Under the pieces are notes generated by a model. The model made no database searches, was not told the origin of the DNA, and saw only the letters and a program-made list of their open reading frames with translations. The position numbers and the translations under genes were made by a program. A stretch of 64,000 nucleotides of DNA from Raillietiella orientalis (taxonomy: Eukaryota): NCBI GenBank assembly GCA_036172245.1, contig JAYWIR010000119.1:1-64000 (forward strand). Reading direction: 5' to 3'. Below, in pieces: positions 21,256 through 44,714 of the stretch. The first letter of the stretch is position 1. Each line of letters starts with the position of its first letter.

Positions 21256-23970
21256 CATTAACCGGTCGCGCCGGGACGTTTATTATAATATCAACTGAGA
21301 ACTGTGTTCCCAGGCAAGGGGAACAGAAAATGGGGAGTAGATTTCCAGGAACGCAGTCCGGACACACTGAAAGTTCGGAACGGGAGGGGGTGGGACAATA
21401 AATAAACTAAGTGGGGGGGCGGGGACAGGGGTATACAGTCTAGCCGTCTCTATTCTCAGAACCGGCGGTGAATGCCGCCGATCTCCATTCTCACTTCTGC
21501 TCCAAGATGTGGCCACCCGGCAGCCATTTGCAGGTTGTAGGCTGCGGTGTCGGGGACCGATGTTGGGACTGCTCGCATCTGCAATACGTGGCGGGCCCTG
21601 ACAATGGCGCGGACGCAGCAGATGATTGCGACGACCGCTCCAAGAGAAAGTCCGCCACGCGTGTAGAAGCGGCGCATCCAATCCAGTGCGGTGTGTCCAG
21701 GGTTCAGGAGCGCTGAAGACAGCCGCTGCCACAGCTCCTGGAGGGCACCGCACTCAAACAGCAAATGCGGAAGCGATTCCACCGCTCCGCATTTGGCACA
21801 GTTCGGGGACGCAACTCTCCCGGAAATCAGGTGCGCCCGCTGGTTGCAGTACAAACCCCAATGCACCAGCAGAAAAGCGTCCTGCATCCACCGAAGGGGG
21901 GAGAGAGTCGCGTCCAAACACGCAGAAGGGACCACAAGTTCATCGGTGGGCACCCCGAGGAGCTCACTCCACCGGAGAAGCCCCTTTGCAAGAATGCGAG
22001 GTGTGGCAGCGTCTGCCACTTCGCAAGTCCTCCAGCCGCCCAGCAGTCGGGTTTCGCCTGCGATTTCGCAAGTGATCTCCCACCTCGCCGGCAGGTCACT
22101 GTCATCTCGCACCATCAGTGCACACAGTGCTTCGGCGAGTGGCGTAGCGCCTAGGCGTGTCCACTGGTCCTGGTCTTCCAGCACCTCCCCCACTGGACAG
22201 TATGGGGAAAGTTTCACGCAACGGAGTTCCAAACGGGACACATCCTGTTGCGCTGCCCAGGACGATAAGGCTTCCTGCCTCCAGGCGTTGAAGTTCGTCG
22301 GCCGGCAGGAGATCCACTCATGCTTTCCCAGAAGCGTGGCGAGCTGCTTCAAAGGGAAGCCGAATCCTCTCTGGGCGCGCTCCGTGCGCAGATGCAACGA
22401 ACGTAGTCCGTCGCCACCCGTGCTGCGCCGCAGCAGCAGCCGCGCTGGAGCACACCAGGGAGTAGTCCAGAGCTGCGCACAAAGTGCCAGCATGCGGAAC
22501 TGCACAAGCAGTCCGATCCGCTCCAGCGTCAGGATGCCCAATCCTGCATCCCGCCGAGGAGCCGCCAAGTCCTTCAGGCGTATCCTGGACCTCGCCGGTC
22601 CCCACAGGGCGTTACGCAACAGGCGTTGCACCCGGCGCTTAGCCGAGTAGGGAGGGGGACAAACAAAAAAGAGGGGACGGAGGAGGGGGGCAACGAAAAT
22701 GTTCCACACGAAGGCCCGTTCCGACAGGAGAAACCTGCCGCCTTGGAACGGGCCCAGAGCAGTCTCGGCCTTGTGAAGGCAGTCCGACCACGCTTCTGCT
22801 GGACAGAAGGCGCCCAAGGGAACGCCGAGGTACTTCAAGCACCTGCCCATGGGGATCCCCAGGCGGATCCAGTCGGACTGCCCCTCCCACGTAGAGCCAA
22901 CCGGTACAACGGTTGATTTCGTCCTGTTCGCGCTCAGGCCAGCTCCCCGACGAATGAGATCGAAGAAGTCCTCGAGCCTGGACGCCGGGGTGGACATGGG
23001 CAGCAGCAGGAGAAGGTCGTCAGCATAGGCGGCCACGTTCGGTGTTCCCGGGCAGGAGCTCGGCAGGTTGGCCAGCGTCAGCCTGTACGCCCTCAGCACC
23101 AACTCAAAGAAGATGCTGAAGAGCAGGCGGCTTAAGCTGTCTCCCTGCCTGATACCCCGCCGTATGGAAACACCGTACACGTGACGCCCGCTGAAAGAGA
23201 TACAGCATAACGCGTGGCGCCAGCAGGAGCGCAAGTAGGCGATGAGGTGCGTCCGGAGGCCTAGGCGTCCCAGAAGCTCCAGAAGGAGGTTCTGGTTTAC
23301 GCTGTCGAACGCTTTGCAGAGATCGACGGCGACTGCTAAGGCTCCCGGCGTTCCATCGTGCCTTGAACACCGCCGCTTTCCTTTGGCAGCGGCGATTTCG
23401 GCTGCCTGGCTCTGCTGCGCCACGCGCTGCTGCAACTCGAACCATGTTCGCGCGAAGAAGAGATTCGCGTCCATGGACCGCCCCGGAACAGCATACGTCT
23501 GCTCCGGACTTACCAAGGACTCCACGATTCTCCCCAGGCGCGCGACCCATAGCCTGGAGAACAACTTGACGTCCGAATTCACCAATGTGATCGGACGCCA
23601 GTTGCTGAGGTGGCGCAAATCACCGCCTTTCGGCAGGAGCCGCACCTTTGCTGAGCGGAAAGAAGCGGGAACATCTCCCGTCTCACGCATCAGCGAGGAA
23701 AGGCTTAGCACCAGGGGGACGAGCTCCGCCGCGAAGCACTGAAAGAACTCCGCGGGCAGGCCATCCTCCCCAGGCGCCTTACGCCTCTTCAGATTCGCTA
23801 TGGCAGAAGATACTTCTTCCGCCGTGAAGGGCCAATCCAATCTGGCGCGTTCCTCCTCGTCGATAGCAGGGTTGCCCGTCGGAAGAAGCAGCTCGGAGAG
23901 ACTGCGTTCCGTGGGTTCCTATGCGTACAACGAGGAGTACTAGCGCTTGACTACGCGGCGCACGGCGGAC
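21256..23970 (-). mobile_element. Element I: 3' part of a LINE with intact 3' terminus (probably the 3' half of K)
   Basis: Long RT ORF. Terminus reads aataaacgtcccggcgcgaccggttaatg on minus. Confidence 0.88.
21456..23840 (-). CDS. ORF2 RT plus C-terminal Cys-rich domain of element I (794-codon open stretch, N-terminally broken)
   Basis: KAPGEDGLPAEF, WRPITLVN, VDLCKAFDSV, GIRQGDSLS, YADDLLL, KYLGVPL, CAKCGAVESLPHLLFEC. Confidence 0.9.
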   Translation of the reverse strand: MDWPFTAEEVSSAIANLKRRKAPGEDGLPAEFFQCFAAELVPLVLSLSSLMRETGDVPASFRSAKVRLLPKGGDLRHLSNWRPITLVNSDVKLFSRLWVARLGRIVESLVSPEQTYAVPGRSMDANLFFARTWFELQQRVAQQSQAAEIAAAKGKRRCSRHDGTPGALAVAVDLCKAFDSVNQNLLLELLGRLGLRTHLIAYLRSCWRHALCCISFSGRHVYGVSIRRGIRQGDSLSRLLFSIFFELVLRAYRLTLANLPSSCPGTPNVAAYADDLLLLLPMSTPASRLEDFFDLIRRGAGLSANRTKSTVVPVGSTWEGQSDWIRLGIPMGRCLKYLGVPLGAFCPAEAWSDCLHKAETALGPFQGGRFLLSERAFVWNIFVAPLLRPLFFVCPPPYSAKRRVQRLLRNALWGPARSRIRLKDLAAPRRDAGLGILTLERIGLLVQFRMLALCAQLWTTPWCAPARLLLRRSTGGDGLRSLHLRTERAQRGFGFPLKQLATLLGKHEWISCRPTNFNAWRQEALSSWAAQQDVSRLELRCVKLSPYCPVGEVLEDQDQWTRLGATPLAEALCALMVRDDSDLPARWEITCEIAGETRLLGGWRTCEVADAATPRILAKGLLRWSELLGVPTDELVVPSACLDATLSPLRWMQDAFLLVHWGLYCNQRAHLISGRVASPNCAKCGAVESLPHLLFECGALQELWQRLSSALLNPGHTALDWMRRFYTRGGLSLGAVVAIICCVRAIVRARHVLQMRAVPTSVPDTAAYNLQMAAGWPHLGAEVRMEIGGIHRRF

Positions 23971-24641: not shown

Positions 24642-27586
24642 ATGCCACCCGGATACGCCGGGACGTTTATTAAAAACATTTCAACGGTCAATACAGAACG
24701 TGGTACAAGGCCCCACTGACGGCCACGGAATGCCGGAACTGCCGGGACACCGGGACGCAGCCCGGTGTGCGTCTCCTCGGCAGAGGAGGGGGATGGGGGA
24801 AAAAACAAAAATAAAATAAAATAGAAAAACAAACCACAAAAAAAAAAGTTTGGAGGGCCGGGAAGGGATCACAGAAAACTGCTGGGAGCGCCCATCCTTT
24901 GCAGGATGCCTTCTAGTTCCATTTTCAGCTTTCCTAGATGGGGCCATCGGGTAGCTCTCTGCAGGAAGCGCGAAGCATACTCGATGACGTCCCTCACGAT
25001 GCAGTCTTCATCTTCGGCATCACTCCAGGTCGCCACGATACCACGAATGCAGCAAAGTGCTGCCAGGGCTGCGGCTGGACTGAGGGCGTCCCGCACGAAG
25101 ACAAGACTGAAGATGCATTCAACATTGCCACCATCCGGTATCCGGAGGGCCGTTTTCAGACGATCCCAAAGAATCCGGACGGCAGGGCATTCAACTAAGA
25201 GGTGGGGGAGCGACTCCCGCTCCCCTCACCTGGCACACGCAGGATTTACTCTTCCCCGCGTCCAGTGGAAGCGGCGCGCGTTGCAGGGTAGACCCCAATG
25301 CAGCCACAGAAGCGCCGATTCTTGCCACTTCATGGGGAGAATCCTGGATCCAAGTAGAACCGGAGGCCACTTCAGGTCATCCAGTCGAATGCCGAGCAGC
25401 TCGCCCCATCTTCTTAATCCACGCGGCTGGAGACTAGGGGTCGTTGCATCTGTCAACTCTCCCATGGTCCAGCCGCTCATCATCTTCTCTCTGCCTGTGA
25501 TACAGCAGCAGACTTGCCACCTTGGCTTCCGGCTTCCGTGAAGCGCCCTTTGGAGGAAGGGCATCGCCGTAACAAGGGGTGTGCCTTCCGCCCACGTGTA
25601 ACTCGGTGGAAATTCAAGAATATCACGGAGAGTGCGGCGGAAGTATAAACCGACTCGCAGGCAGTTCATCCGGTCTTCGCACCTTTGGTTCTGCTTAGCC
25701 CAGGTGCCAGCAGTCTCTTCCAGCCAAGCGAAGGAGTTGGCAGGGCCACAAACCATCCAGTCGTTCTCCTTTGCCAGGGTTGCGATGCGGCCGAGCAGTA
25801 GACCGCATCTTCGAATCTTCCGGCCAGGGCACAGAAGAAACGATGCGAGTCCTTCGCAGCGGGACACACGCCTGGCCAGGAGGCGGGCCGGAATGCACCA
25901 AGCGGTGCTCCACATCTTCGCTGCGATGGCGAGGGTCCGCCATCACAGCTGGATTTCCACGCGCTCCAGCGTCAGGATGCTGAGACCGCCGTCCCGACGC
26001 GGAGCGCACAAGTCTTTCAAAGGGACTCGGGGCCTCCCCTTGCCCCAAAGAGCTATGCGGAGGAGGTCCTTAGTCCGCTTTTTTGATTCCACGGAGGCGG
26101 GGCAAACAAAAAGCAAGGGGCGGAGGATGGGGGCCGCGAAGGCGTTGCAAACCGCGGCCCGTTCCGGCAAGTGAAACTTGCCTTCCAGGAACGGGCCGAT
26201 CGCCGTCTCGACTTTTTGGAGGCAGCTGGACCACGCTTCCGCAGGGGAGAAGTCCCCCAACGGCACACCGAGGTACTTGATGCACCTCACCGTGGGGATC
26301 CCCAGACGGACCCAGTCCTGCTGCCCTGCGCACGTCGCTCCAACTGGCAACACTGACGACTTCGCCCTGTTAACCTGTAATCCGGCCCCACGGCTAAGCA
26401 GGTCGAAGAAATCTCCGACCGCCTTCGCCGGGGTGGACATAGGTAAGAGGAGCAGAAGATCGTCGGCATACGCCGCTACGGCTGGCGTGCCGGGGCACGA
26501 GCTCGGCAAGGGGGCCAAAGTCACCCTGTACGCTTTCAGCACCAACACAGCGTAGGTGCTAAAAAGCAGGGGGCTGAGGCTGTCGCCCTGCCTTATGCCC
26601 CGCCGCACCGGCACGCCATACACCTTTTGTCCACTGAAAGTAATCGAGATTATCGCGTTCCGCCAGCAAGAGCGCAGGTAGGTAATCAAGGAAGGTGGGA
26701 AGCCCATGCGACCCAGGAGCTTCAAGAGGAGTTCCTGGTCAACACAGTCGAATGCCTTATGGAGGTCGACTGTGATCGCTAAAACCCCCTTTCCCGCATG
26801 AGGGTGCCTTCCCTGTCCCACTGGCGGCCCCAAAGTAGGGTTGCAAATTTTCCCTTTCCCTTCTTTATTACTCCGCTGCGCGTGCATCCATGTGCTCGCG
26901 AAGAAGAGGTTGTCCTCCATACTTCGCCCGGGAACAGCGTAAGTCTGCTCCGGGCTAATTATGGAATTGGACACCTGCCCCAATCGCGACGCCCGCAGCC
27001 CGGCAATCAACTTGGCGTCCGTGTTCACAATCGTGATCGGACGCCAGTTGCAAAGTTTCCTGAGGTCTCCTCCCTTCGGGAGGAGCCTCACCCTGGCTGA
27101 CCGAAACGAGGCGGGATCATCGCCTTCGTCTTGGATTCGCCTTGTCAACTCGAGCACCAGGGGGGCCAGCTCTTCCGCGAAACTCTGAAAGAACTCCGCG
27201 GGCAAGCCGTCCTCCCCTGGCGCCTTACGCCTCTTGAGCCTTTTGATACCGGCGAGAATTTCACCGGTCGTGAAAGGCTCATCGAGGCTTTCTTTGTCCT
27301 CCTCCCCTATCGCCACGGAACCACTCATGAGCAATCGCCGCGAGGCGTCTTGTTCGGGTGGTGTTTTGGCGTAAAGGGAGGAATAAAAACACCGCACGGG
27401 ATTCCGTACCGCAGGCGGGGACGAACGTTCCCGGCCCAGGTCATCCAGCATGCTGGCTGACCCTGATTACCTAGCTTGTCGCTCGGCTCCGGCGCGGTAT
27501 TCGGCCAGGCGACGGACATTGGGGTTCCTCTCGTGATGACGCGCGTGCAAATACGCGCGTTCGTTGCGAGCCCCGTCGCCGAATCC
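24642..27586 (-). mobile_element. Element B, 3' half (post-EN linker, frameshifted RT, 3' UTR and terminus)
   Basis: ORFs 25943..27451, 25226..25915, 24869..25096. Terminus aataaacgtcccggcgtatccgggtggcat. Confidence 0.9.
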
Positions 27587-27596
27587 CTTGGCGAGT

Positions 27597-27603
27597 GGAC
27601 GTG
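27597..27603 (+). promoter_or_regulatory. GGACGTG, DPE-like internal promoter motif
   Basis: Present at all intact 5' ends: 20070, 27597, 44725 on plus; 35962, 39756, 55103 on minus; variant TGACGTG at 2665 and 12665 on minus. Confidence 0.55.
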
Positions 27604-27682
27604 TTTTTCCTTCGCTCCCGAGTGAGTCGACAGGAAGCGGTTTTTTGTTGTGTTGTTTAGTGCGGAACATCGTTGGTGTCCG

Positions 27683-29439
27683 ATGGCAGCGATGCCTGAG
27701 GACACCACGATGGAGGTAGGTGTGGGGGAGGCTTGCCCACCCCCACAGCCTACAGAATCAGTGGCGTCCGCCCCGGAATCGCCCTCGCCGCTCAAGGCGA
27801 GGAGCTGGAGCGCCATGGTGGCCGCGCCGAGCGCGGAAACCATGGCCGAGATGGCGGCCTACCGGGCAGCTGGGTACAAGCCCAGCTTGGTTTACCAGGT
27901 AGGCAATCTCTTTGACGGGCGAACTGCACGCGCTTTTTCGAAAGCGCTGCAGAACGCCAACGTATTAGAAAAGGACCTTGACGGTCTATCCGTGCTAAGC
28001 GGGGGTCAGCGCGTTGAGGTTGTCTGCAAGGACATCACCTTGGCGCAAAGCTTGATAACCACCCCGCTGAACGTGGACGGACGCAAGATCCTACCAGTCA
28101 CGATGGACCGCTCCGTAGTGGTCCATCTGACAGGGATCACCATCCGCATGACGCGGTCTGCGGTTGGTGATCAGTTAAGAAAGCACGGGGATGTTCACGC
28201 GCTTTGGCCAAAGGCCACAATCTTCGATGGCTACGATAGCCTTTTCGGAGGGCAGGCCGCCGCGCGCGTGACGGTGAACGAGAGTGGGCTTCCCCACAAA
28301 CTAGAGGTCAATGGCGAAGTCGTAGACCTCTGGTGCGTGGGGAAACCCCGCTTTTGTGGCTACTGCAATGCAGTAGGACACTTGCGCAAGCGGTGCCCGA
28401 ACATTGTGTGCCACTTATGCGGGGAGAAGGGCCACGTACGCCGCGTATGCCCTAAACTCCCCACTCCGGTGCCGCCTGCTGCAAAAAAAGCACAGGCAAA
28501 ACGCGGTAAACTGGTCGAAAGACCAAAAAGAGATACTGGCCGGCAGCAGCCGCTAGCCCCTGTTCCTCCCACACAGGCGTCGGAAGAAAAACCCTCCGAA
28601 GACGCGGGAGTCCAAGACGGCTGGCAGCTGGTCAAGGCCAGGAAGGAGAAAACGGTGCCCCCCGCGGAACCCGCAAAAGCGGTAAAAAAGACAGCCGGCA
28701 AGGCGAAAAAACCTGGGCCGCGCTCTAAGACCATGCAGGAGTGTACGGTAGCACTGGAGCGCATAGCCGTTCCCGAGATTGCCACCCGGGGCGACGAGCC
28801 TTCCCTCGCCGTTTCCGCCGCGCCCGAGGTTCGCGACGGCGAACCCTCTGTTTACACAGAGGGTGAGCCGCGCGACGCGCCGGTCGACACTGCGGACGCC
28901 GCGTTCGCAAAGGCGGCGGAGGAGCTCGCAGCCACGCTGGCGGAGCGTGAGAACCCCTCACGCAAGGCCGTGCGAAGGCCGGCTCCCGCGAAAAAGGCCC
29001 CCACAGGTGAGTCGGACCTGGGGGCCGGAAGTGCATCCTCCTCCTCGGAGGCACCCCCAGGAAGTCGGGACGCAAGTCCCAGAAACCCAGGAGGCGCCTC
29101 CCCTCCACCAGCGAGGAGGAGAAGCAGGAAGGTAGCGGTAGCGTGGGAATCCTGGAGGGGGAACTCCCACGCTCGGAAGCCGTCGAGCCGGCCACCCCCA
29201 TGGAGGAGGGTGAGCAGGGGGGCGAAGTCCTCCCTGCAGTCGCCGAGCCTGAACAGCCCGCCCCCATGGAGGAGGGCCAACAGGTAGGCGCGACCCCACT
29301 TAAGGGTGATCCGGACGACGCGCCGGCACCGATGGATGAGGAGGAAAAGGTGCCTTCAGTACCTGTCCCCCCTCCCCCTCCACCTAACGTCCCGCCCCAG
29401 CAGGTGGCGGACGCCGCATCGCCGTTTTCCCTGGACTAA
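27683..29439 (+). pseudogene. ORF1 of C (two CCHC knuckles), one frameshift near 29060
   Basis: CGYCNAVGHLRKRC and CHLCGEKGHVRRVC. The C-run before agg is one base shorter than in the intact B ORF1. Confidence 0.88.
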
Positions 29440-32400
29440 CACTTGGGCTCGCCAGTCGCCGTCGGATTCGCGCGGCCTGTTGGAACGTCAACGGGCTGCG
29501 CGACGACGGCAACAGGCGAGATACAGCCGACGCCCTGCGTGAGCTCGACCTGGCGCTGCTGCAGGAGATCCACGTGATCACCGCGGCAGACGCCCAGGAA
29601 ATCGAGACGATCGCGGGGGGTCGGCTGTATTGGCGATGCGGCCTCCGCAACACGTGCGGGGTCGCGTTCTTCGTGAAGCCGGCCATCGACGCTGCCGTAA
29701 AGCGCGTGCGGATTGATGACGACGGTCGGATCGGTCAGCTGATTCTCAGCTGGTCCGACTCGATCGACCTAATCGTCACAAACGTGTATGGCCCCAGCGG
29801 TAAACAGGGATACAGCGACCGTACCAGGCTGCTGGATTCCCTGAAGCGCGACTGGCTGGCGGACACGAACGTGCGGAAGGCTCACCTGATAGCGGGAGAT
29901 TTCAATCTCCGTCTGCTAACAGGTGAGCCAGAAACACAAGAGAACGCGATGAACGAGTTGTGCGCCGCCATGCGTGCGCGCAACTTGTTCGCGGGTGAGA
30001 GGGGACTGGTCCGCAGCATCGACCACGTCTTCCTCGACGCTGACCTGTGTTCACGGGTCGGCAAACGGGGGAGGGTTGCGTCGACGTTGTCGGACCATTC
30101 CCGGTTAATTTTCGAGATGCGGCCTCGTGACTAGGGACCGCCATCCAGGGATTGGCGTCTGCCGGGGGACTGGACGCGACTCTCAGGTGCGAAGGAATAC
30201 CTTCGCGAATACCTGAGAGGTGTCACGCTCCGGAATCTCCAGGACTGGGACCTTTTTAAGGAATCGGTCCGCGAGTTCTGTGAGCAGTTCCCCTGGATCG
30301 CCTGCCCCCCGGATTCGGCGAGGGTGCTCGCAACCATCGGGCCTATTTACAGGCTCGTAGGTACGAGAGAACCCCTAATGTCCGTCGCCTGGCCGAGTAC
30401 CGCGCCGGGGCCGAACGCCAAGCCTGGCAATCCGGGTCGGCCAGCTTGCTGGACGACCAGGGCCGGGAATGCTCGTCCCCGGCGTCGGTACGGCATCTCG
30501 TGCGGAGTTTCTATTCCTCCCTTTACGCCAGGCAGCCCCCGGATCGAAACGCCTCTCGGCGCTTGCTTCCGGATGGCGCCCCGGCAATAGGGGAGGAGGA
30601 GATGGAAAGCCTCGACGAGCCTTTTACCACCGGCGAAATTCTCGCCGGTATCAAAACGCTCAAGAGGCGTAAAGCTCCAGGGGAAGACGGCTTGCCCGCG
30701 GAGTTCTTTCAGAGCTTCGCGGAAGAGCTGGCACCCCTGCTGCTTAAGTTGATCAGGCTGATCCGAGACGAAGGCGATGTTCCCGCCTCGTTTCGGTCAG
30801 CCAGAGTGAGGCTCCTGCCGAAAGGGGGGACCTCAGGGATTTAAAGAACTGGCGTCCGATCACGATCGTGAATACGGACGCCAAGTTGATCGCAGGGCTA
30901 TGGGCTTCGCGTCTGGGGCAGGTGGCAGAATCCGTAATTAGCCCGGAGCAGACTTATGCTGTTCCCGGGCGAAGTATGGATGCCAGCCTCTTCTTCGCAA
31001 GCACATGGGTGCACCTGCAGAGAAGAGAGAAGAAAGGGATAGGGAAAGTCGGCAACCCCACATTAAGGCCGCCAGCCGGGCTGGGAAGGGACCCCCGGGC
31101 GGGGAAGGGGGCCCTAGCGCTCGCAGTCGATCTCCACAAGGCGTTCGACTGTGTAGACCAGGAACTTCTCTTGGAGCTCCTGGGTCGCATGGGCTTTCCA
31201 CCCTCCCTGATTTCCTACCTGCGCTCTTGCTGGCGGAACGCGATAATTACCGTCTCTTTCAGCGGTCAAAAGGTGTATGGCGTGCCGGTGCGGCGGGGCA
31301 TAAGGCAGGGAGATAGCCTCAGCCCCCTGCTCTTCAGCACCTACTTTGAGTTGGTGCTGAGAGCGTACAGGGTGACTTTGGCCCCATTGCCGAGCTCGTG
31401 CCCCGGCACGCCCGCCGTAGCAGCATACGCCGACGATCTTCTGCTTTTGTTGCCAATGTCCACCCCGGCAAAGGCGGTCGGAGACTTCTTCGATCTGCTC
31501 AGCCGCGGGACCGGACTGCACGTTAACAGAGCGAAGTCGTCGGTTGTGCCAATAGGTGCGGCGTGGGCAGGGCAGCAGGACTGGGTCCGTCTGGGGATCC
31601 CCACGGCGAGGTGCTTCAAGTACCTTGGTGTGCCGTTGGGGGACTACTCCCCTGCGGAAGCGTGGTCCAGCTGCCTCCATAAAGTCGAGACGGCGATCGG
31701 CCCGTTCCTGGAAGGCAAGTTTCACTTGCCGGAACGGGCCGCGGTTTGGAACGCCTTCGCGGCACCCATCCTCCGCTTCTTGCTTTTTGTTTGCCCCCCC
31801 ACCGTGGAATCCAAGAAGAGGACGAAGGACCTCCTCCGTATCGCCCTTTGGGGCAAGGGGAGGCCCCGAGTCCCACTGAAGGACTTGTGCGCTCCGCGTC
31901 GGGACGGCGGTCTTGGCCTCCTGACGCTGGAGCGCGTGGAAAAGCAGCTGCCGTGGCGAACCCTCGCCATCGCAGCGAAGATGTGGAGCACCCCTTGGTG
32001 CACTCCGGCCCGCCTCCTGGCCAGCCGTGTGTCCCGGTGCGATGGACTCGCGTCTTTTCTTCTGAGCCGTGGCCGGAAGATGCGAAGATGCGGCCTACTG
32101 CTCGGGCGCATGGCAACATTGGCCAAGGAGAACAGCTGGATGGTTTGCTGCCCCGCCAGCTCCCCCGCCTGGCTGGAGGAGAATATTGGAACGTGGGCAG
32201 TAGTCAACCAGAGAAGCCACGAGACGTGGAATCGTCTCCGATGCAGCCCCTACGCCCGCTGCACGCTGCGGAATCTCCTGGAGAGTTCAGCAAGATGCAC
32301 GTGGGCAGAGACGACCTGCCTAGCTACGGCGCTACCCTTCCTAAGGAGGGCACTTCACAGCACCCGGACGCCAAGGTGGCAAGTCTCCTGCTGCATCGAG

Positions 32401-33033
32401 GGACGCGAGAAGTTGATCAGCGGCTGGACAACAGGAGAACTGGCCGACGCCTCGACCCCGAGCGTCCAGCCGCGAGGATTATTAAGATGGGGCGAGCTGC
32501 TCGCCATCCCCCGGGATGAGCTGAAGTGGCCCCCGGTGATGAAGGAATCCAGGATCCTGCCCCTCAAGTGGCAAGAGTCGGCGTTGCTTTTGTTGCACTG
32601 GGGTCTACCCTGCAACGCGCGCCGCTTCCACTGGACGAGGGGGGCTGTGGATCCTGCGTGTGCCAGGTGCGGGGAGCGGGAGTCGCTTCCCCACCTTATT
32701 GTGGATTGTGCTGCCCTCCGACCCCTTTGGGAACGGTTCGGGACGACCCTCGGGCTCCCTACGGGTAGCACCCCCAGAGACGTTCTTCGGCCCCTCTTCG
32801 TGAAGGACGCACTGCAGCCAGCCGCAGCCATCGCAGCCTTGTGCTGCGTCCGTGGCATCGTGGGGGCATGGAGCGACGCCAACAACGAAGGAGTGGGTCC
32901 ACAGGCGAGGGATGTCATCCCGTATGCCAAACGCTTCTTGCGAAGAGCTGCCGGATGGCCCCAACTAGGGAATATGCAGGCTGACCTCGAGGGCTTCGTT
33001 CGACGGATGGGCCCTCCCCACAGCGACCAGTGA
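29439..33033 (+). pseudogene. ORF2 of C (APE-RT-Cys), with a stop at 30132 and frameshifts near 30290 and 30830
   Basis: WNVNG, LQEIH, GDFN, IDHVF, SDH; RT in ORF 30868..33033 with DLHKAFD, GIRQGDSLSP and YADD. Confidence 0.9.
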
Positions 33034-33209
33034 TCCCTTCCCTGCCCTCCAACTTCTTTTTGTTTGTTTCTTTTTTTATTTTACTTTTTGTCTCATCCCC
33101 ATCCCCCTTCGCTGTCGGGGAATGCCACGCCGGGCTGCGTCCCGGTGTCCCGACAGGTCCTGTGTTTACGGCCGTGGTGGGGCCTTGTACCACGCATGTA
33201 AAGTTTATC

Positions 33210-33240
33210 AATAAACGCCCCGGGCGTACCCGGGTGGCAA
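33210..33240 (+). terminator. Conserved LINE 3' terminus: AATAAA plus CCCGG/CCGGG hairpin plus TGGCAA, no poly(A)
   Basis: Same layout at the ends of A, B, E, F, I, M and the 61-bp insertion. Confidence 0.75.
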
Positions 33241-35972
33241 CGCCGAATCCGGGGGGCAGGCGATCCAGGGGGAACTGCTCACAGAACTCGCGGACCGATT
33301 CCTTAAAAAGGTCCCAGTCCTGGAGATTCCGGAGCGTGACACCTCTCAGGTATTCGCGAAGGTATTCCTTCGCACCTGAGAGTCGCGTCCAGTCCCCCGG
33401 CAGACGCCAATCCCTGGATGGCGGTCCCTTGTCACGAGGCCGCATCTCGAAAATTAACCGGGAATGGTCCGACAACGTCGACGCAACCCTCCCCCGTTTG
33501 CCGACCCGTGAACACAGCTCAGCGTCGAGGAAGACGTGGTCGATGCTGCGGACCATTCCCCTCTCACCCGCGAACAAGTTGCGCGCACGCATGGCGGCGC
33601 ACAACTCGTTCATCGCGTTCTCTTGTGTTTCTGGCTCACCTGTTAGCAGACGGAGATTGAAATCTCCCGCTATCAGGTGAGCCTTCCGCACGTTCGTGTC
33701 CGCCAGCCAGTCGCGCTTCAGGGAATCAGCAGCCTGGTACGGTCGCTGTATCCCTGTTTACCGCTGGGGGCGTACACATTCGTGACGATCAATTCGATCG
33801 AGTCGGACCAGCTGAGAATCAGCTGACCGACCCGACCGTCGTCATCGAAGCGCACGCCCTTCACGGCCGCGTCGATGGCCGGCTTCACGAAGAACGCGAC
33901 CCCGCAGGTGTTGCGGAGGCCGCACCGCCAATACAGCCGACCCCTCGCGATCGTCTCGATCTCCTGGGCGTCTGCCGCGGTGATCACGTGGATCTCCTGC
34001 AGCAGGGCCAGGTCGAGCTCACGCAGGGTGTCGGCCGTATCTCGCCTGTTACCGTCGTCGCGCAGCCCGTTGACGTTCCAACAGGCGGCGCGAATCCGAC
34101 GGCGACTGGCGAGCCCAGGTGTTATTTCTGGGAAGATGGCGATGCGGCGTCCGCCACCTGTTGGGGCGGGACGCTAGGTGGAGGAGGAGGGTCAGGCGCT
34201 GCGTGCACCTGGTCCCCCTCCTCCATGGGTAACGGCGCGTCGAGGGGGTCACCCTTAAGTGGGGTGGCGCCTACCTGTTGGCCCTCCTCCATGGGGGCGG
34301 GCTGTTCAGGCTCGGCGACTGCAGGGAGGACTTCGCCCCCCTGCTCACCCTCCTCCATGGGGGTGGCCGGCTCGACGGCTTCCGCGCGTGGGAGTTCCCC
34401 CTCCGGGATTCCCACGCTACCGCTCCCTTCCTGCTTCTCCTCCTCGCTGGTGGAGGGGAGGCGCCTCCTGGGTTTCTGGGACTTGCGTCCCGACTTCCTG
34501 GGGGGTGCCTCCGAGGAGGAGGATGTACTTCCGGCCCCCAGGTCCGACTCACCTGTGGGGGCCTTTTTCGCGGGAGCCGGCCTTCGCACTGCCTTGCGTG
34601 AGGGGTTCTCACGCTCCGCCAGCGTGGCCGCGAGCTCCTCCGCCGCCTTTGCGAACGCGGCGTCCGCAGTGTCGACCGGCGCGTCGCGCGGCTCACCCTC
34701 TGTGTAAACAGAGGGTTCGCCGTCGCGAACCTCGGGCGCGGCGGAAACGGCGAGGGAATTCTCGTCGCCCCGGGTGGCAATCTCGGGAACGGCTATGCGC
34801 TCCAGTGCTACCGTACATTCCCGCATGGTCTTAGAGCGCGGCCCAGGTATTTTCGCCTTGCCGGCTGTCTTTTTTACCGCTTTCGCGGGTTCCGCGGGGT
34901 GCACCTTTTTCTCCTTCCTGGCCTTGACCAGCTGCCAGCCGTCTTGGACTCCCGCGTCTTCGGAGGGTTTTTCTTTCGACGCCTGTGTGGGAGGAACAGG
35001 GGCTAGCGGCTGCTGCCGGCCAGTATCTCTTTTTGGTCTTTCGACCAGTTTACTGCGTTTTGCCTGTGCTTTTTTTGCAGCAGGCGGCACCGGAGTGGGG
35101 CGTTTAGGGCATACGCGGCGTACGTGGCCCTTCTCCCCGCATAAGTGGCACACAATGTTCGGGCACCGCTTGCGCAAGTGTCCTACTGCATTGCAGTAAC
35201 CACAAAAGCGGGGTTTCCCCACGTACCAGAGGTCTACGACTTCGCCATTGACCTCTAGTTTGTGGGGAAGCCCACTCTCGTTCACCGTCACGCACGCGGC
35301 GGCCTGCCCTCCGAAAAGGCTATCGTAGCCATCGAAGATTGTGGCCTTTGGCCAAAGCGCGTGAACATCCCCGTGCTTTCTTAACTGATCACCAACCGCA
35401 GACCGCGTCATGCGGCTGGTGATCCCTGTCAGATGGACCACTACGGAGCGGTCCATCGTGACTGGTAGGATCTTGCGTCCGTCCACGTTCAGCGGGGTGG
35501 TTATGAAGCTTTGCGCTAAGGTGATGTCCTTGCAGACAACCTCAACGCGCTGACCCCCGCTTAGCACGGATAGACCGTCAAGGTCCTTTTCTAACACGTT
35601 GGCGTTCTGCAGCGCTTTCGAAAAAGCGCGTGCAGTTCGCCCGTCAAAGAGATTGCCTACCTGGTAAACCAAGCTGGGCTTGTACCCAGCTGCCCGGTAG
35701 GCCGCCATCTCGGCCATGGTTTCCGCGCTCGGCGCGGATACCATGGCGCTCCAGCTCCTCGCCTTGAGCGGCGAGGGCGATTCCGGGGCGGACGCCCCTG
35801 ATTCTGTAGGCTGTGGGGGTGGGCAAGCCTCCCCCACACCTACCTCCATCGTGGTGTCCTCAGGCATCGCTGCCATCGGACACCAACGATGTTCCACACT
35901 AAACAACAATAGAAAAAACCGCTTCCTGTCGACTCACTCGGGAGCGAAGGAAACACACGTCCACTCGCCAAG
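33241..35972 (-). mobile_element. Element B, 5' half (5' UTR, ORF1, EN up to LPPGFG)
   Basis: 5' end cttggcgagtggacgtg at 35972. Candidate TSD ggattcggcg (35973-35982) and ggtttcggcg (24632-24641). Confidence 0.92.
34122..35876 (-). CDS. Intact ORF1 of B, 584 aa, nucleic-acid-binding protein with two CCHC knuckles and an acidic/Pro-rich tail
   Basis: MAAMPEDTT...CGYCNAVGHLRKRC...CHLCGEKGHVRRVC...SSQK* is open throughout. Confidence 0.9.
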   Translation of the reverse strand: MAAMPEDTTMEVGVGEACPPPQPTESGASAPESPSPLKARSWSAMVSAPSAETMAEMAAYRAAGYKPSLVYQVGNLFDGRTARAFSKALQNANVLEKDLDGLSVLSGGQRVEVVCKDITLAQSFITTPLNVDGRKILPVTMDRSVVVHLTGITSRMTRSAVGDQLRKHGDVHALWPKATIFDGYDSLFGGQAAACVTVNESGLPHKLEVNGEVVDLWYVGKPRFCGYCNAVGHLRKRCPNIVCHLCGEKGHVRRVCPKRPTPVPPAAKKAQAKRSKLVERPKRDTGRQQPLAPVPPTQASKEKPSEDAGVQDGWQLVKARKEKKVHPAEPAKAVKKTAGKAKIPGPRSKTMRECTVALERIAVPEIATRGDENSLAVSAAPEVRDGEPSVYTEGEPRDAPVDTADAAFAKAAEELAATLAERENPSRKAVRRPAPAKKAPTGESDLGAGSTSSSSEAPPRKSGRKSQKPRRRLPSTSEEEKQEGSGSVGIPEGELPRAEAVEPATPMEEGEQGGEVLPAVAEPEQPAPMEEGQQVGATPLKGDPLDAPLPMEEGDQVHAAPDPPPPPSVPPQQVADAASPSSQK

Positions 35973-38956
35973 GGATTCGGCGGAGGGCTGAGGAACGACC
36001 GGGCATACCACCACGCCCGTCTTTACTCTAGAACTCCCGACGTTCGACGCCTGGCGGAGTATAAAGCTGGGGCTGAGCGACAGACCTGGTAATCCGGGTC
36101 GCCCAGCTTGCTGGACGCCCAAGGCCAAGAATGCTCAGCTCCGGCGAGAATAAACCGCATCCTGCGGGACTATTACTCCTCCTTGTACGCGCGTAGAACA
36201 ACAGAGAACGCCGTGGCGCAGCGCTTGCTGCCGCAAGGCGCCCCCGCGCTGCAGGAGGAGCAGGCACATGAACTCGCGGAGCCTTTCTCGATGGCGGAGA
36301 TCGTCTCCGCCATCGGAAAGCTCCGTAAGAGAAAAGCACCAGGGGAAGACGGTCTGCCCGCGGAGTTCTACCAAGGCTTCGTGGCGGAGCTGGCCCCCCT
36401 GGTGCATCGGCTATGCATGCTGATCCGAGAACAAGGGGACGTCCCCAAATCGTTCCGGTCAGCTAGAGTACGTCTCCTGCCGAAAGGAGGAGACAATCGC
36501 AACGTAGGCAACTGGTGTCCCATCACAGTAGTGAATGCGGATGCGAAGCTGCTTGCCAAGCTTTGGGCTGAGCGACTGGGACGGGTGGCGGAATCCGTGG
36601 TGAGTACGGAGCAGACATACGCTGTTCCCGGACGAAGCATGGAGGCCAACCTGTTCCTCGCCAGTACATGGTGGCAGTTGCAAAAAAGCGAAGACCAGGG
36701 AGGTCAAGAGAATCCTGGATTCTCCTCTGACCAGGGAGGGTACGCCCTTTATGGAAGAGCTGCGCCCGGTGCCCTTGCGGTCGCAGTCGATCTGCGTAAA
36801 GCGTTCGATTGCGTCGACCAGGAACTGCTTCTGGAGCTCCTGGAACGCTTGGGATTCCCGGCCGTCTTCCGGGCTTACCTGCGCTCCTGCTGGCGCTTCG
36901 CTCTAATAAACATCTCTTTTAGCGGCCGGCACGTGTACGGCGTGCCGGTTCGGCGTGGCATAAGGCAGGGTGACAGTCTGAGCCCCATGCTCTTCAGCAT
37001 CTACTTCGAGCTGGTGCTGAGGGCATACAGGGAGATTCTGGCAACCCTGCCAAGCTCGTGTCCCGGCACGCCTGCCGTGTCGGCCTACGCCGACGACCTT
37101 CTGCTCCTGCTCCCCGGGTCCACCCCGGCGTCGGCGCTCGAAGATTTCTTTGAGTTGCTGCGCCGCGGGACGGGCCTCGAGGTGAACAGAGAGAAATCTT
37201 CCATCGTTCCAACATCACCACAACTTTTCAACAATACGGCGTGGGCCGGACGGCCGGACTGGATCCGCTTGGGGATCCCCACGGGCAGGTGCTTCAAGTA
37301 CCTTGGCGTTCCGTTGGGGGACTTCTGCGTTGCAGAAGCCTGGTCCGACCGTCTCCAAAAGGTGGAGTTGGCGATCGGCCCGTTCCGGAACGGCAAGTTT
37401 TACTTGCAGGAGCGGGCCGCGGTGTGGAACGCTTTCGCGGCCCCCCTCCTTCGCCCCTTACTTTTTGTTTGCCCCGCCCCTCCCATCATACAGAGACGGA
37501 CCAAAGCCCTCTGGAGGACTGCCCTTTGGGGCACAGAGAGGTCGCGAGTCCGATTGAAAGACTTGTGCGCTCCACGCAGGGATGGTGGCTTGGGCCTCCT
37601 TACGTTGGAGCGCATCCAACTTCAAACAAGAATTCGAAAGTTAGCCCTTGCGGCTAGCTTATGGATGACGCCATTGTGCGATTCGGCACGGCTCCTCGCC
37701 AGAAGAGCGACCGGCTGCGAAGGATTGTCCTCGATCCTCGTGGCCTACCAGCGCAGCCTCTCCAACTGTGGTCCCGATTTGCTCCAGATGGTCGCCCTGA
37801 TGAGGGAGAATACCTGGATCTCCTGCATCCCCGCGAACTGCACTGCCTGGCTTCAGGAGTCAGCTTCCGCGTGGGCTAAGATCAAGGGCACGAGCGAGGC
37901 GGAATACAACTGCCTACGACGAGGACCGTACGCTCGACAGCCGCTGCAGGATATTATCAACACGCCCCGGAAGTTTCTGTGGGCTTCTTTCAGTCCCCTT
38001 GCCCCAGTTCTGTCCTCCCTTAAAAACACTAGGAGCAGCAACGAGCGGGCATCGTGGGAAGTTTCCTGCCTTATCCGAGGCAGGAAAAAACCTTTAAAGG
38101 CGTGGACGACTTGGGAGCTCACGGACGCTGCCACCCCGAGCGTCCCGCCTCACGGACTTGCGCGCTGGGGAGAGCTGCTCGCAATACCTCCGGAGGAGGT
38201 GAAGTGGCCCCCAGCGTGTTGGGATTGCGGTACACTCCCGTTGAAGTGGCAGGAGACGGCGTTGCTATTTCTGCACTGGGGACTGTTAAGCAGAGCACGC
38301 CTGTCTCACTGGACACTGGGGAATGTGGATGCCCGCAATGTCGAGTGCGGAGAAAGAGAAACCTTCCCGCATCTCACCCTCGAATGTGTCGCCCTGGATG
38401 GACTCTGAAGTCAAATCGCCCCAATCCTCCATCATCCAGTAGGCGACCCTAAGGAAGTTTACCGTCGCCTCTTTCTGCGTGACGGCCTGCGCCCCGCTGC
38501 GTCTCTAGCAGTCCTCTGCTGCGTGCGCGGCATTGTGCAAAGGTGGCACGCCAGAAAAAGAGGCCCAAGATGCAGGGACGCCATCCACTGGACGACGATC
38601 TCTTTAGAGACGGCGACAAGGTGGCGTCTACCTTTCACAATAAAAACTGAACTTGACTGCATCCTCAACAGGATGCGGAGGACCGACCCAGGCGCCCAGT
38701 GATCCCTTCCCTTTCCCCCCCCTCTCCCCATACAACTGTTTCCCTCCCCGTTATCTCTCTTTATGTTTGTTTTTGTTTTAGTTTTCCCTTCCCATGCGCC
38801 TCGGGAATGGACCTAACCGGTCTATGCACCGGCAACCGACACGTCAACCAAGGTGGGAAAACCAAGTGTTTCCCACAATTAACTTTTGAAAGACTTTATT
38901 ATATAATTTTTGTAGAAAATAAGAATAATAAATGCACCGGCATATCCGGGTGGCAA
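35973..38956 (+). mobile_element. Element A, 3' half (linker, RT, 3' UTR, terminus)
   Basis: Starts GFGGGLRNDRAY. Terminus aataaatgcaccggcatatccgggtggcaa (38927-38956). Confidence 0.9.
36108..38408 (+). CDS. RT-containing open stretch of ORF2 of A (766 codons; frameshift before the true end ~38702)
   Basis: KAPGEDGLPAEF, DLRKAFD, GIRQGDSLSP, YADDLLL, KYLGVPL. Confidence 0.88.
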   Translation: MLDAQGQECSAPARINRILRDYYSSLYARRTTENAVAQRLLPQGAPALQEEQAHELAEPFSMAEIVSAIGKLRKRKAPGEDGLPAEFYQGFVAELAPLVHRLCMLIREQGDVPKSFRSARVRLLPKGGDNRNVGNWCPITVVNADAKLLAKLWAERLGRVAESVVSTEQTYAVPGRSMEANLFLASTWWQLQKSEDQGGQENPGFSSDQGGYALYGRAAPGALAVAVDLRKAFDCVDQELLLELLERLGFPAVFRAYLRSCWRFALINISFSGRHVYGVPVRRGIRQGDSLSPMLFSIYFELVLRAYREILATLPSSCPGTPAVSAYADDLLLLLPGSTPASALEDFFELLRRGTGLEVNREKSSIVPTSPQLFNNTAWAGRPDWIRLGIPTGRCFKYLGVPLGDFCVAEAWSDRLQKVELAIGPFRNGKFYLQERAAVWNAFAAPLLRPLLFVCPAPPIIQRRTKALWRTALWGTERSRVRLKDLCAPRRDGGLGLLTLERIQLQTRIRKLALAASLWMTPLCDSARLLARRATGCEGLSSILVAYQRSLSNCGPDLLQMVALMRENTWISCIPANCTAWLQESASAWAKIKGTSEAEYNCLRRGPYARQPLQDIINTPRKFLWASFSPLAPVLSSLKNTRSSNERASWEVSCLIRGRKKPLKAWTTWELTDAATPSVPPHGLARWGELLAIPPEEVKWPPACWDCGTLPLKWQETALLFLHWGLLSRARLSHWTLGNVDARNVECGERETFPHLTLECVALDGL

Positions 38957-41794: not shown

Positions 41795-44714
41795 TTGCCA
41801 CCCGGTGACGCCGGGGCGTTTATTTCAAATACTCCATGATTCGTGGTACGAGGCCCCACTACGGCAAACTCAACTGGACCTGCCGTGTCGCCGGTACGCA
41901 GACCTGCGCGACTCTCCTCGGCAGCGGAAGGGGGTGGGAGAAAAAACAAAAAGAAAACTAAATCATGAAAACAAAAAGATTTGGGAGGGCAGGGAAGGGA
42001 TCAAGGTCCATTGGAAGGAGGATCCATCCTTTGCAGGATGCCCTTGAGGTTCGTGCGTATATTTCCCAGGTGGGGCCATCTGGTCGCATTCCGCAGGTAG
42101 CGGACTGCAAGTACGACGGCATCCCTGTCGTGGCTCGGTCTTCTGACGTTGCTCCAGCAAGTCACAATCCCGCGTATGCAGCAAAGTGCAGCCAGGGTAG
42201 CGGCTGGAAGAAAGGGAATCCTGCAAGAACAGAAGCCGAATAACGTCTCTGGGCTGGCTGCCCTCCTGGATCCGTAGGGAGGGACGAAGACGTTCCCACA
42301 GGGGTCGGAGGGCAGCACAATCAACAAGGAGGTGGGGGAGGGTTCCCCGTTCCCCACACCTGATGCAGGTAGGATCTGCTCGAACCCTGGTCCAGTGGTG
42401 GCGGCGTGCGTTGCAGGGTAGACCCCAATGCAACAACAGAAGCCCTTACTCCTGCCACTTCAGGGGGAGGATTCTAGAACCAATTACTACCGGGGGACAC
42501 TTCAGGTCATCCGGCTGGATGCCGAGTAGCTCGCCTCATCTCTGAAGTCCTCTCGGCTGGACACTAGGGGTAGTGGCGTCTGCCAGTTGCCCCGTGGACC
42601 AGCCGCTTATCAACTTCTCCTTGCCTGGGATGCGGCAGGAGAGTTGCCACCTAGGCTTGGGGCTGCTAAAGAGCGCCCTCCTCAGGAAGGGCATCGCCGT
42701 AGCTAGGGGGGTTGTCTCTGCCCACGTGCTTCTCGCGGGACACTGGAGTACCTTCCGCAGAGGGCAGCGGGAATAGGCGCCGCGTCGCAGGCAGTTCCAC
42801 ATCTCTCCGTTCTTCTGGTTTATCTTCGCCCTCGTGCCAGCTGTCTCCTCCATCTATGCGGAGGAGTTGGCGGGGCTGCATACCATCCAGCCGTTTTCCT
42901 TAGCCAGAGTTGCCATGCGTCCCAGGAGAAGTCCGCATCTCTTGATCTTCGAGTGGCGGCACAGCAGATGAGACGCGAGACCCTCCGTTCCGGATACACG
43001 GCTGGCAAGGAGTCGGGCCGGAACGCACCATGGGTTGCTGCATAACTTCGCTGCGATGGCCAGGGTGCGCCATCGCAGCTGGATTTCTACTCTCTCCACC
43101 GTCAAGAGGCTGAGACCGCCATCCCAACGTGGAGCACACAAGTCCTTCTAATGGACTCGGGGCCTCCCTCTTCCCCAAAGGGCAAACCTCAGGAGGTCCT
43201 TCGTCCTTTTCTTCATGTCCCTGGGGACGGGGCAAACAAAAAGCAGGGGGCGGAGGATGGGAGCCGCAAAGGAGTTCCACACCGCGGCCCGTTCCGGAAG
43301 CAGGAACTTGTTTTCCAAGAACGGGCCGATCGCCGTTTCCACTTTTTGGAGGCAGCCGGACCACGCATCCGAAGGGGAGTAATCCCCCAACGGCACACCG
43401 ACGTACTTCAAGCACCTGGCCGAGGGGATCCCCAAACGGACCCAGTCCTGCTGCCCAGCCCACGTCGCACCGACTGGTACCACCGACGACTTCGCCTTGT
43501 TAACCTGCAGTCCGGTTCCGCGGTTAAGCAGGTCGAAGAAATCCTCGAATGCCTTTGCCGGGGTGGACATCGGCAACAAGAGCAGAAGATCGTCGGCGTA
43601 CGCTGCTACGGCGGGCGTGCCGGGGCACGAGTTCGGCAAGGGGGCCAACGTCACCCTATACGCTCTCAGCACCAACTCAAAGTAGGTGCTAACGAGCAGG
43701 GGACTGAGGCTGTCGCCCTGCCGTATGCCCCGCCGTACCGGCACGCCGTACGCCATTTGACCTCTGAAAGAGATATTGATCAGCGCGCTGCGCCAGCAAG
43801 AGCGCAGGTAGGTCAGTAGGGAGGGAGGGAAGCCCATGTGTCCCAGGAGCTCCAGCAGGAGATCCTGGTCCACGCAGTCAAACGCTTTATGCAGATCGAC
43901 TGCGATCGCTAGGGCCCCCTTCACACCTGGGAGTCCTGTCCCTGCCCGGCTGACGCCCCCAAAGCGGGGCTGCCAATCCTTCCCTCTTCCTTTTCTACAC
44001 TACTCTGCACATGAAACAATGTGCTCGCGAAGAAGAGGTGGCCTACATACTTCGCCAGGGAACAGCGTATGTCTGCTCCGGGCTAATCATGAAATTGGCC
44101 ACCTGCCTCAGACGCGAAGCTTACAGTCCGGCGATCAGCTTGGCGTCCGTATTCACAATTGTGATCGAACGCCAGTTGCTGAGTTTCCTGAGGTCTCCTC
44201 CTTTCGGAAGGAGCGTCACTCTGGCTGACCGAAAAGAGGCGGGTACATCGCCTTCATCTCGGATCAGATTTGTCAACTCAAGCACCAGGGGTGCCTACTC
44301 TGCCGCGAAGCATTGAAAGAACTCCGCGGGCAGGCCGTCCGCCCCTGGTGCTTTCCGCCTCTTGAGCCTTTTGATACCGGCGAGAATTTCGCCGGTGGTA
44401 AAAGGCTCGTCTAGGCTTTCCTTCTCCTCCTCCCCTATTGCCGGGGCACCGTCCGGAAGCAGGCGCCGAGAGGCATCTTGGTCTGGGGGCGCCCTGGCGT
44501 AAAGGGAGAAATAATAACTCCGTACGATGTGCCGTATTCTAGCCGGAGCTAAGTGCTCCCTGCCCTGGTCGTCCAGCAAGCTGGCCGACCCGGATTGCCA
44601 GGCTTGACGTTTGGCTCCGGCAAGGTACTCTGCCAGGCGACGGACATTGGGGGTCCTCGCGTAACGACGGGCATACAAGTACGCTCGTTTGTTACGGATC
44701 CACTCCCCAACTCC
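41795..44714 (-). mobile_element. Element E: 3' half of a LINE (linker to terminus), degenerate
   Basis: ORFs 44295..44837 and 43148..43924 (YADD). Terminus aataaacgccccggcgtcaccgggtggcaa. Confidence 0.9.

What the first reader, a model, noticed from the sequence alone, without database searches (positions are those of the whole stretch)
33112..33155. Covarying CUGCGU-hexaloop hairpin in the 3' UTR of nearly every family member
Seen in sense orientation: C gccggg-CTGCGT-cccggt (33135); B acaccggg-CTGCGT-cccggtgt (24760-24755); E ggt-CTGCGT-acc (41901-41896); M ccggt-CTGCGT-tccgg (51777); F ccgac-CTGCGT-gtcgg (46860-46855); I gga-CTGCGT-tcc (21356-21351); N ggc-CTGCGT-gcc (57100); A ccggt-CTATGC-accgg (38822). 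An outer stem also covaries (ctgtcgg/ccgacag in C, ctgccg/cggcag in B and E). Established: stringent LINEs recognise 3' stem-loops. Inference: an RT-binding cis element.
Basis: partly seen in the sequence, partly recalled or inferred. Interest (0 to 1): 0.7.

Follow-up and report, generated by a model that had tools for sequence, protein, structure and literature searches.

The report
Conserved hairpin in LINE retrotransposon tails
A family of jumping genes (LINE retrotransposons) keeps a small RNA hairpin in its tail whose stem changes in matched pairs; it is most likely a handle for the element's own copying enzyme, a known kind of signal, and its loop may also pair with a second hairpin at the very end of the RNA.

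Summary
The hairpin is real at all eight sites listed. It lies in the 3' UTR of L1-type LINEs that nest into each other. Across 19 families from this genome the loop-closing pair is Watson-Crick in 19 of 19 and takes all four forms, so the stem is under selection. The loop is not fixed: CUGCGU occurs in 24 of 43 UTRs found without using the hairpin. Only C1, U2 and G5 hold, the pattern of a pseudo-triloop. The outer stem exists in 7 of 19 families only. The hairpin is one part of a longer tail: a middle hairpin, AAUAAA, an even more constant terminal hairpin, and 0-4 A instead of poly(A). RT binding is likely (about 0.55) but untested. New here: the hexaloop is fully complementary to the terminal hairpin's loop in 12 of 19 families, and family A changed both sides. 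Covariation of that contact is not significant and 7 families break it, so a kissing loop stands at about 0.25. The scan has reported the hairpin, the terminal hairpin and the self-nesting before on other pieces of this genome.

The parts
33126..33147 (+). SL1 of copy C: inner stem with hexaloop CUGCGU (loop 33135-33140)
   Evidence: covariation
33112..33156 (+). SL1 with its outer stem (33112-33119 with 33149-33156); outer stem in 7 of 19 families
   Evidence: (z -2.23, 6 of 200 shuffles)
33034..33111 (+). Pyrimidine block after the ORF2 stop: C/U tract, U tract, C tract
33173..33194 (+). SL2, middle hairpin; sequence differs between families
33210..33215 (+). AAUAAA poly(A) signal; folded into an A/U hairpin in 10 of 19 families, weakly in C (33203-33216)
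33219..33234 (+). SL3, terminal hairpin; its loop is complementary to the SL1 loop in this family
33235..33240 (+). Last bases of the element, ending in two A; no poly(A)
   Evidence: 30 of 30 C copies end in 2 A
33241..33250 (+). Target-site duplication, right copy (left copy 27577-27586)
27587..33240 (+). Full-length L1-type LINE copy C: ORF1 with CCHC knuckle, ORF2 with endonuclease, RT and C-terminal zinc region; frameshifted
24755..24760 (-). SL1 loop of copy B; AAUAAA and SL3 at 24648-24671
41896..41901 (-). SL1 loop of copy E; AAUAAA and SL3 at 41801-41824
51777..51782 (+). SL1 loop of copy M (closing pair broken); AAUAAA and SL3 at 51854-51877
46855..46860 (-). SL1 loop of copy F; AAUAAA and SL3 at 46761-46784
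21351..21356 (-). SL1 loop of copy I; AAUAAA and SL3 at 21262-21284
57100..57105 (+). SL1 loop of copy N; this copy lacks SL3, most other N copies have it
38822..38827 (+). SL1 loop CUAUGC of copy A; AAUAAA and SL3 (loop CAUAU) at 38927-38950

Best explanation
SL1 is a cis-acting RNA stem-loop of a stringent-type, L1-clade LINE. Shown: it is a selected RNA hairpin in a structured 3' tail, and insertions end at a fixed point 0-4 A behind a second hairpin (SL3). Inferred: the loop folds as a C1-G5 pseudo-triloop; the element's own protein (ORF2p most likely) binds SL1 to pick out its RNA; SL3 and AAUAAA fix the 3' end, so that reverse transcription starts at the base of the A tail on a site nicked by the endonuclease, with no poly(A)/poly(T) pairing.
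For: Closing pair WC in 19 of 19 family majority sequences, four pair types, 0 of 20000 permutations as good (families are related, so this is not a probability). On 17 real copies: 84.9% paired, 16 double-change cells, 0 of 500 shuffles; slid registers 18-45%. My hand count on the ORF2 tree gives 4-5 independent double changes at the closing pair, plus one each at two other pairs. G-U is tolerated in the stem, which points to RNA. Loop positions C1 18/19, U2 17/19, G5 18/19 against 13, 14 and 11 of 19 at positions 3, 4, 6 (with the two G1 loops read in a shifted register). A runs at the junction are 0-4 in 194 of 194 copies scored. Precedent: ZfL2 ORF2 binds its own 3' stem-loop and the loop gives specificity (PMC4176376, passages); one monocot L1 lineage has a covarying 3' hairpin (PMC3472496, first third of the text); HBV epsilon, an RT-binding RNA, has a CUGUGC pseudo-triloop (PMC1636360, passages).
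Against: No binding or activity data. The C1-G5 pair never covaries. The majority of family N keeps the loop with a collapsed stem. Only C and B fold better than shuffles (z -2.2, -2.4); the other six window copies give z from -1.6 to +0.8. In whole-tail folds SL1 has probability 0.00-0.02 in C, E, F, I and N because other pairings compete. SL1 lies 66-117 nt before AAUAAA, not at the end. Families that differ strongly in ORF2 share one loop, so the loop cannot tell them apart. No SINE partner found.
Confidence: 0.55

Rival explanations
1. The SL1 loop kisses the SL3 loop (UGCGU with GCGYR), folding the tail into a pseudoknot that brings the RNA 3' end to the bound RT. This may act on top of protein binding.
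For: Five of five pairs in one fixed register in 12 of 19 families, in three of four deep ORF2 clades. A random 5-mer would fit UGCGU with chance 0.016. Slid registers pair 12-63% against 82%. Among the 12, changes keep pairing (G-U with G-C, U-A with U-G, U-G with C-G). Family A changed both loops and has five WC pairs in most copies. About 10 hand-counted changes at loop positions 2-5 all fall in the two lineages whose SL3 loop departed from the ancestral form, which hold 35% of tree length, while their stems stay intact.
Against: Covariation is not significant: 46 of 500 shuffles for pairing, 96 of 500 for the score; permutation 0.06. Seven families have 1-3 pairs, among them the young family G2 (40 copies at 93-100%). 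G5, G3 and an older G4 group keep CUGCG with a non-matching SL3 loop. In G7 the SL1 loop varies with SL3 unchanged. An out-of-sample copy (CUGAGG with CUCAC) fitted, but only 2 of the 10 copies in its group have that loop. A's match has a chance of about 1 in 16 given the invariant positions, with six diverged families to draw from (my estimate). G5 of the loop cannot pair with C1 and with SL3 at once.
Confidence: 0.25
2. The tail structure serves 3' end formation or RNA stability, not RT recognition: SL1 to SL3 and the A/U hairpin over AAUAAA tune cleavage, read-through or decay, with host proteins as readers.
For: AAUAAA is nearly invariant and directly precedes SL3. It is paired at 0.87 or more in local folds of 10 of 19 families, in 7 of them above all 100 shuffles. 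HIV-1 folds its poly(A) signal into a suppressing stem-loop (PMC12789967, passages).
Against: The AAUAAA hairpin is absent in B, E, F, I, N and G11. SL1 is far from the signal. U-rich sequence upstream of poly(A) signals pairs with AAUAAA easily.
Confidence: 0.15
3. No function: conservation by descent in related repeats, or a DNA-level CCGG motif.
For: Most stem pairs are invariant CCGG arms, and covariation is concentrated in one pair.
Against: Mean column identity of the tails is 48%, yet 4-5 independent double changes at the closing pair left no mismatch in any family majority; G-U pairs are accepted.
Confidence: 0.05

Closest known systems
3' tail stem-loops of stringent L2-clade LINEs (zebrafish ZfL2-1, ZfL2-2; eel UnaL2), PMC4176376
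   Same: Stem-loop in the 3' UTR, stem sequence exchangeable, loop more conserved, no long poly(A).
   Different: Different clade (L1-type here); two hairpins plus AAUAAA and 0-4 A instead of one stem-loop and short repeats; many families share one loop; binding not shown here.
Conserved 3' hairpin of the monocot 1a L1 lineage (LINE1-1_ZM with ZmSINE2/3), PMC3472496
   Same: L1-clade LINE with a 3' hairpin, compensatory stem changes and conserved loop bases.
   Different: There it lies in the last 45-50 nt and is shared with SINEs; here SL1 is about 100-150 nt from the end and no SINE was found in the sample.
Pseudo-triloop hairpins (HBV epsilon CUGUGC; IRE; HIV-1 TAR), PMC1636360
   Same: Hexaloop with conserved C1 and G5 and a free sixth base; epsilon is bound by a reverse transcriptase.
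   Different: Unrelated elements; a likeness of loop pattern only, not tested structurally.
Zepp and ZeppL LINE clusters of green algae (PMC3446292, PMC8226300)
   Same: L1-type LINEs in GC-rich clusters of copies nested in each other.
   Different: Zepp arrays are described as tandem 3' ends; here most assigned insertions are antisense at family-specific sites in coding sequence. Kinship not tested.

Membership tests
Stringent-type LINE 3' stem-loop | Stem-loop in the 3' tail with compensatory stem changes and conserved loop bases | tested here: met
Stringent-type LINE 3' stem-loop | Needed for retrotransposition and bound by the element's ORF2 protein | not testable with these tools
   needs assays as in PMC4176376
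Stringent-type LINE 3' stem-loop | Lies next to the 3' end | tested here: inconclusive
   SL1 is 66-117 nt before AAUAAA; SL3 ends about 6 nt from the junction
Stringent-type LINE 3' stem-loop | Tail borrowed by a partner SINE | tested here: inconclusive
   0 of 41 tail-profile hits in 253 kb lack an ORF2 end upstream; not searched genome-wide
L1 clade LINE | ORF1 with CCHC knuckle; ORF2 with AP-type endonuclease, RT and C-terminal zinc region | tested here: met
   Pfam hits (zf-RVT below its cut-off); best solved structures are human L1 ORF2p at E about 1e-49, R2 at 1e-19 or weaker
L1 clade LINE | Short target-site duplication | tested here: met
   10 bp for C; 10 bp with one mismatch for B
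Tx1 group | Placement with Tx1 elements in an RT tree | not tested
   no named Tx1 reference among the hits; named relatives are 21-31% identical
Pseudo-triloop | Bases 1 and 5 of the hexaloop can pair, base 6 is free | tested here: inconclusive
   possible in 18 of 19 families (14 of 17 in the alignment's register); no covariation
Kissing-loop pseudoknot | Complementary loops with compensatory changes | tested here: inconclusive
   12 of 19 families 5/5; 46 of 500 shuffles; broken in 7
Rfam families, including small ribozymes | Match to a covariance model at the gathering score | tested here: not met
   0 in the window; one chance-level hit at E 4.2 in the tail
Zepp / ZeppL | Nested insertion into own copies | tested here: met
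   153 of 193 junctions assigned to family sequence, 40 unassigned
Zepp / ZeppL | Descent from Zepp; one cluster per chromosome at the centromere | not tested
   no Zepp sequence at hand; centromeres unknown

The most novel reading that the evidence does not exclude
The tail of these L1-type LINEs folds into a long-range kissing-loop pseudoknot between the CUGCGU hexaloop and the terminal hairpin. It holds the RNA 3' end at the RT and so lets the element start cDNA at a fixed base without a poly(A) tail. Two lineages lost the pairing; one rebuilt it with new letters (A) and another put a GAAA loop into the terminal hairpin (G2, G3).
Probability: 0.25. Interest if true: 0.6.

Novelty: new member of a known kind. 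Interest (0 to 1): 0.33.

Why it matters
As a stringent 3' stem-loop it extends a known signal to an undescribed L1-type group and gives a natural mutagenesis series of 19 families, useful for asking how L1-clade proteins moved between reading RNA structure and reading poly(A). If the loop-loop contact holds, it would be a tertiary 3' structure that sets the start of target-primed reverse transcription. I found no such contact in print for a LINE (searches; the library lacks most subscription journals). It can be tested with four point mutants.

Tried and rejected
Rfam: nothing. tRNA: none. Relatives in other organisms: the first metagenome scan found none; the second gave 80 loci at 23-33% identity, none with a match to the tail profile at E 1 or better, so all covariation comes from one genome. 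Sequencing runs: no RNA holder listed, no reads laid. HDV-like or hammerhead ribozyme: considered by eye, no core seen. Extended duplex of SL1 with SL3: predicted as the minimum-energy fold for several families, but double changes inside SL1 (F, G4, G10) are not mirrored in SL3, so not preferred. RNA-guided target choice by read-through: disfavoured because the first target base varies (17 of 30 in F) and junctions follow the host variant; not excluded. H-type pseudoknots of the loop with nearby UTR sequence: fits exist in single families, as expected by chance for 5-mers with G-U. CpG decay as a source of loop changes: transitions at CpG are not raised (43/4560 against 180/13380). No covariance model was built and R-scape is not available; a sequence profile was used. 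A genome-wide SINE search was not done. The C offset was wrong; C's A runs come. Dropped from the tree: one chimeric row, one row whose upstream DNA was the host copy, four duplicates; G12 and G1b have no row. Outputs were partly cut; the E, F, I and A parts were reprinted.

Full report
Observation. CTGCGT occurs 57 times in the window; 7 of these have at least 3 Watson-Crick pairs, where the background rate of 1.9% predicts about 1, and 6 of the 7 are the listed UTR sites. Copy M has a mismatch at the closing pair, and N is cut after the hairpin.

Host elements. The region from about 20 to 57 kb is a pile of LINEs with a CCHC-knuckle ORF1 and an endonuclease-RT ORF2. The closest solved structures are human L1 ORF2p. 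Copy C is full length (27587-33240) with a 10-bp duplication, inserted backwards into another member at the endonuclease-RT linker, and B sits at the same site in a further member. Of 193 junctions from seven families, 120 are antisense in family coding sequence, 22 abut a 5' end, 11 are sense in coding sequence and 40 were unassigned; each family prefers its own site. These copies are the best matches to each query, so they are the young ones, and the C query included 5 bases of the duplication. The organism was not determined here; earlier scan notes call it an animal.

Sample. I collected tails of seven window families (30 loci each), mined further tails with a pattern that ignores the loop, and fetched more copies of five deviant groups. 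This gave 19 families; G10 and G12 rest on one copy, G9 and G11 on two, G3 on three, G8 on four. For an estimate free of the hairpin, ORF2 ends were located by a coding profile in 253 kb of contiguous DNA: 45 ends, 2 cut before the UTR, 36 of 43 with a stem of 3 bp or more, 24 of 43 with the loop CTGCGT.

Covariation of SL1. On 17 real copies the stem is 84.9% paired with 16 double-change cells, above all 500 shuffles, and slid registers reach at most 45%. The signal sits mainly in the closing pair, which is Watson-Crick in 19 of 19 family majorities and takes all four forms. On the ORF2 tree I count by hand 4-5 independent double changes there, and one each at two other pairs (F, G10). RNAalifold keeps only SL1 and the terminal hairpin SL3 as common structure. 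The outer stem is limited to 7 families. Against: family N's majority has lost most of the stem, only C and B fold better than shuffles, and equilibrium folds of the whole tail often pair SL1 elsewhere.

The loop. Across families the loop reads C-U-N-N-G-N: C1 18, U2 17, G5 18 of 19, positions 3, 4 and 6 variable (reading the two G1 loops in a shifted register). That is the pattern of a pseudo-triloop, as solved for HBV epsilon (PMC1636360, passages seen). The C1-G5 pair does not covary, so this is a fit, not a proof.

The rest of the tail. After the stop come pyrimidine tracts, SL1, a variable middle hairpin, AAUAAA, three bases, SL3 with nearly invariant CCCGG and CCGGG arms, and about six bases. 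Copies end in 0-4 A in 194 of 194 cases, followed by target sequence. In 10 of 19 families AAUAAA is folded into an A/U hairpin, in six it is not.

Loop-loop match. SL1 loop positions 2-6 are complementary to the last stem G and first four loop bases of SL3 in 12 of 19 families, spread over three of four deep clades. Family A changed both loops and pairs fully. The match is specific to one register, and changes at loop positions 2-5 fall only in the two lineages where the SL3 loop had diverged (35% of tree length, about 10 changes by hand count). But covariation is within the range of shuffles (46 of 500), seven families break the match, including the young and abundant G2, G7 varies SL1 alone, and an out-of-sample test that fitted in one copy failed for most of its subgroup. 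Joint recognition of both loops by one protein would give much of the same pattern. I put the kiss at 0.25.

Mechanism. Most likely the element's own protein binds SL1 to select the RNA, SL3 and AAUAAA define the 3' end, and the RT starts at the base of the A tail on an endonuclease nick. Shown: selection on the stem, the tail anatomy, the fixed ends. Inferred: the reader protein, the loop fold, polyadenylation of the transcript.

Known systems. It works like the 3' stem-loops of stringent LINEs. ZfL2 ORF2 binds its own stem-loop through the endonuclease-RT linker (PMC4176376, passages). A monocot L1 lineage has a covarying 3' hairpin shared with SINEs (PMC3472496, first third of the text; its supplementary figures were not seen; PMC3747384, passages). 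The functional features that define that class could not be tested, and no SINE partner appeared in the sample. The nesting recalls Zepp (PMC3446292, PMC8226300, passages); kinship was not tested. No Rfam family matches. Searches for a kissing loop in a LINE tail and for Tx1 self-insertion listed nothing relevant, judged from listings only.

Earlier scan notes. The scan has already reported this hairpin (8 notes shown), the terminal hairpin without poly(A) (2 notes) and the antisense self-nesting (8 notes shown) on other pieces of this genome. I had reached these readings before the look-ups. None of the summaries shown mentions the loop-loop match.

Verdict. A real, selected RNA hairpin; a new member of a known kind; interest 0.33. 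The open lead is the possible contact with the terminal hairpin.

Noticed in passing
window 1-20055: A 10-kb unit repeated head to tail at 98% identity, holding a divergent ORF1-like piece and a LINE RT piece cut before its 3' UTR.
   Followed up: no
window 27587-30320 and 33241-35972: The 5' halves assigned to C and B are up to 99% identical near the junction, while their 3' halves are about 79% identical. One may be recombinant, so the nesting order is not certain.
   Followed up: partly
window 39780-43034 and 50644-53898: E and M with their flanks are an inverted duplicate at 94% identity, so they are probably one insertion event.
   Followed up: partly
L214 (G000:C119, about 102900-103400): A G2-type ORF2 end joined to a G1a-type 3' UTR at the pyrimidine tract after the stop; a single chimeric copy.
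   Followed up: partly
families G5 and G7: These older families have many copies deep inside large contigs, while young families sit mostly in clusters and small contigs; self-targeting may be a later trait.
   Followed up: no
L291-L310 (G2) and L155 (G3): The terminal hairpin carries a GAAA loop; in G2 it closes as a perfect 6-bp stem with a GNRA tetraloop.
   Followed up: partly
families C, B, E, F, I, A: No excess of CpG transitions in the tails of young copies, so no sign of CpG methylation decay.
   Followed up: partly
L111 (G000:C101:14098-14452): An F copy whose 3' tail is directly followed by a second copy of its last 120 or so bases, starting just before SL1.
   Followed up: no
window 57125-64000: Lower-GC (about 43%) sequence without ORFs of 150 codons, beyond the cluster edge.
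   Followed up: no
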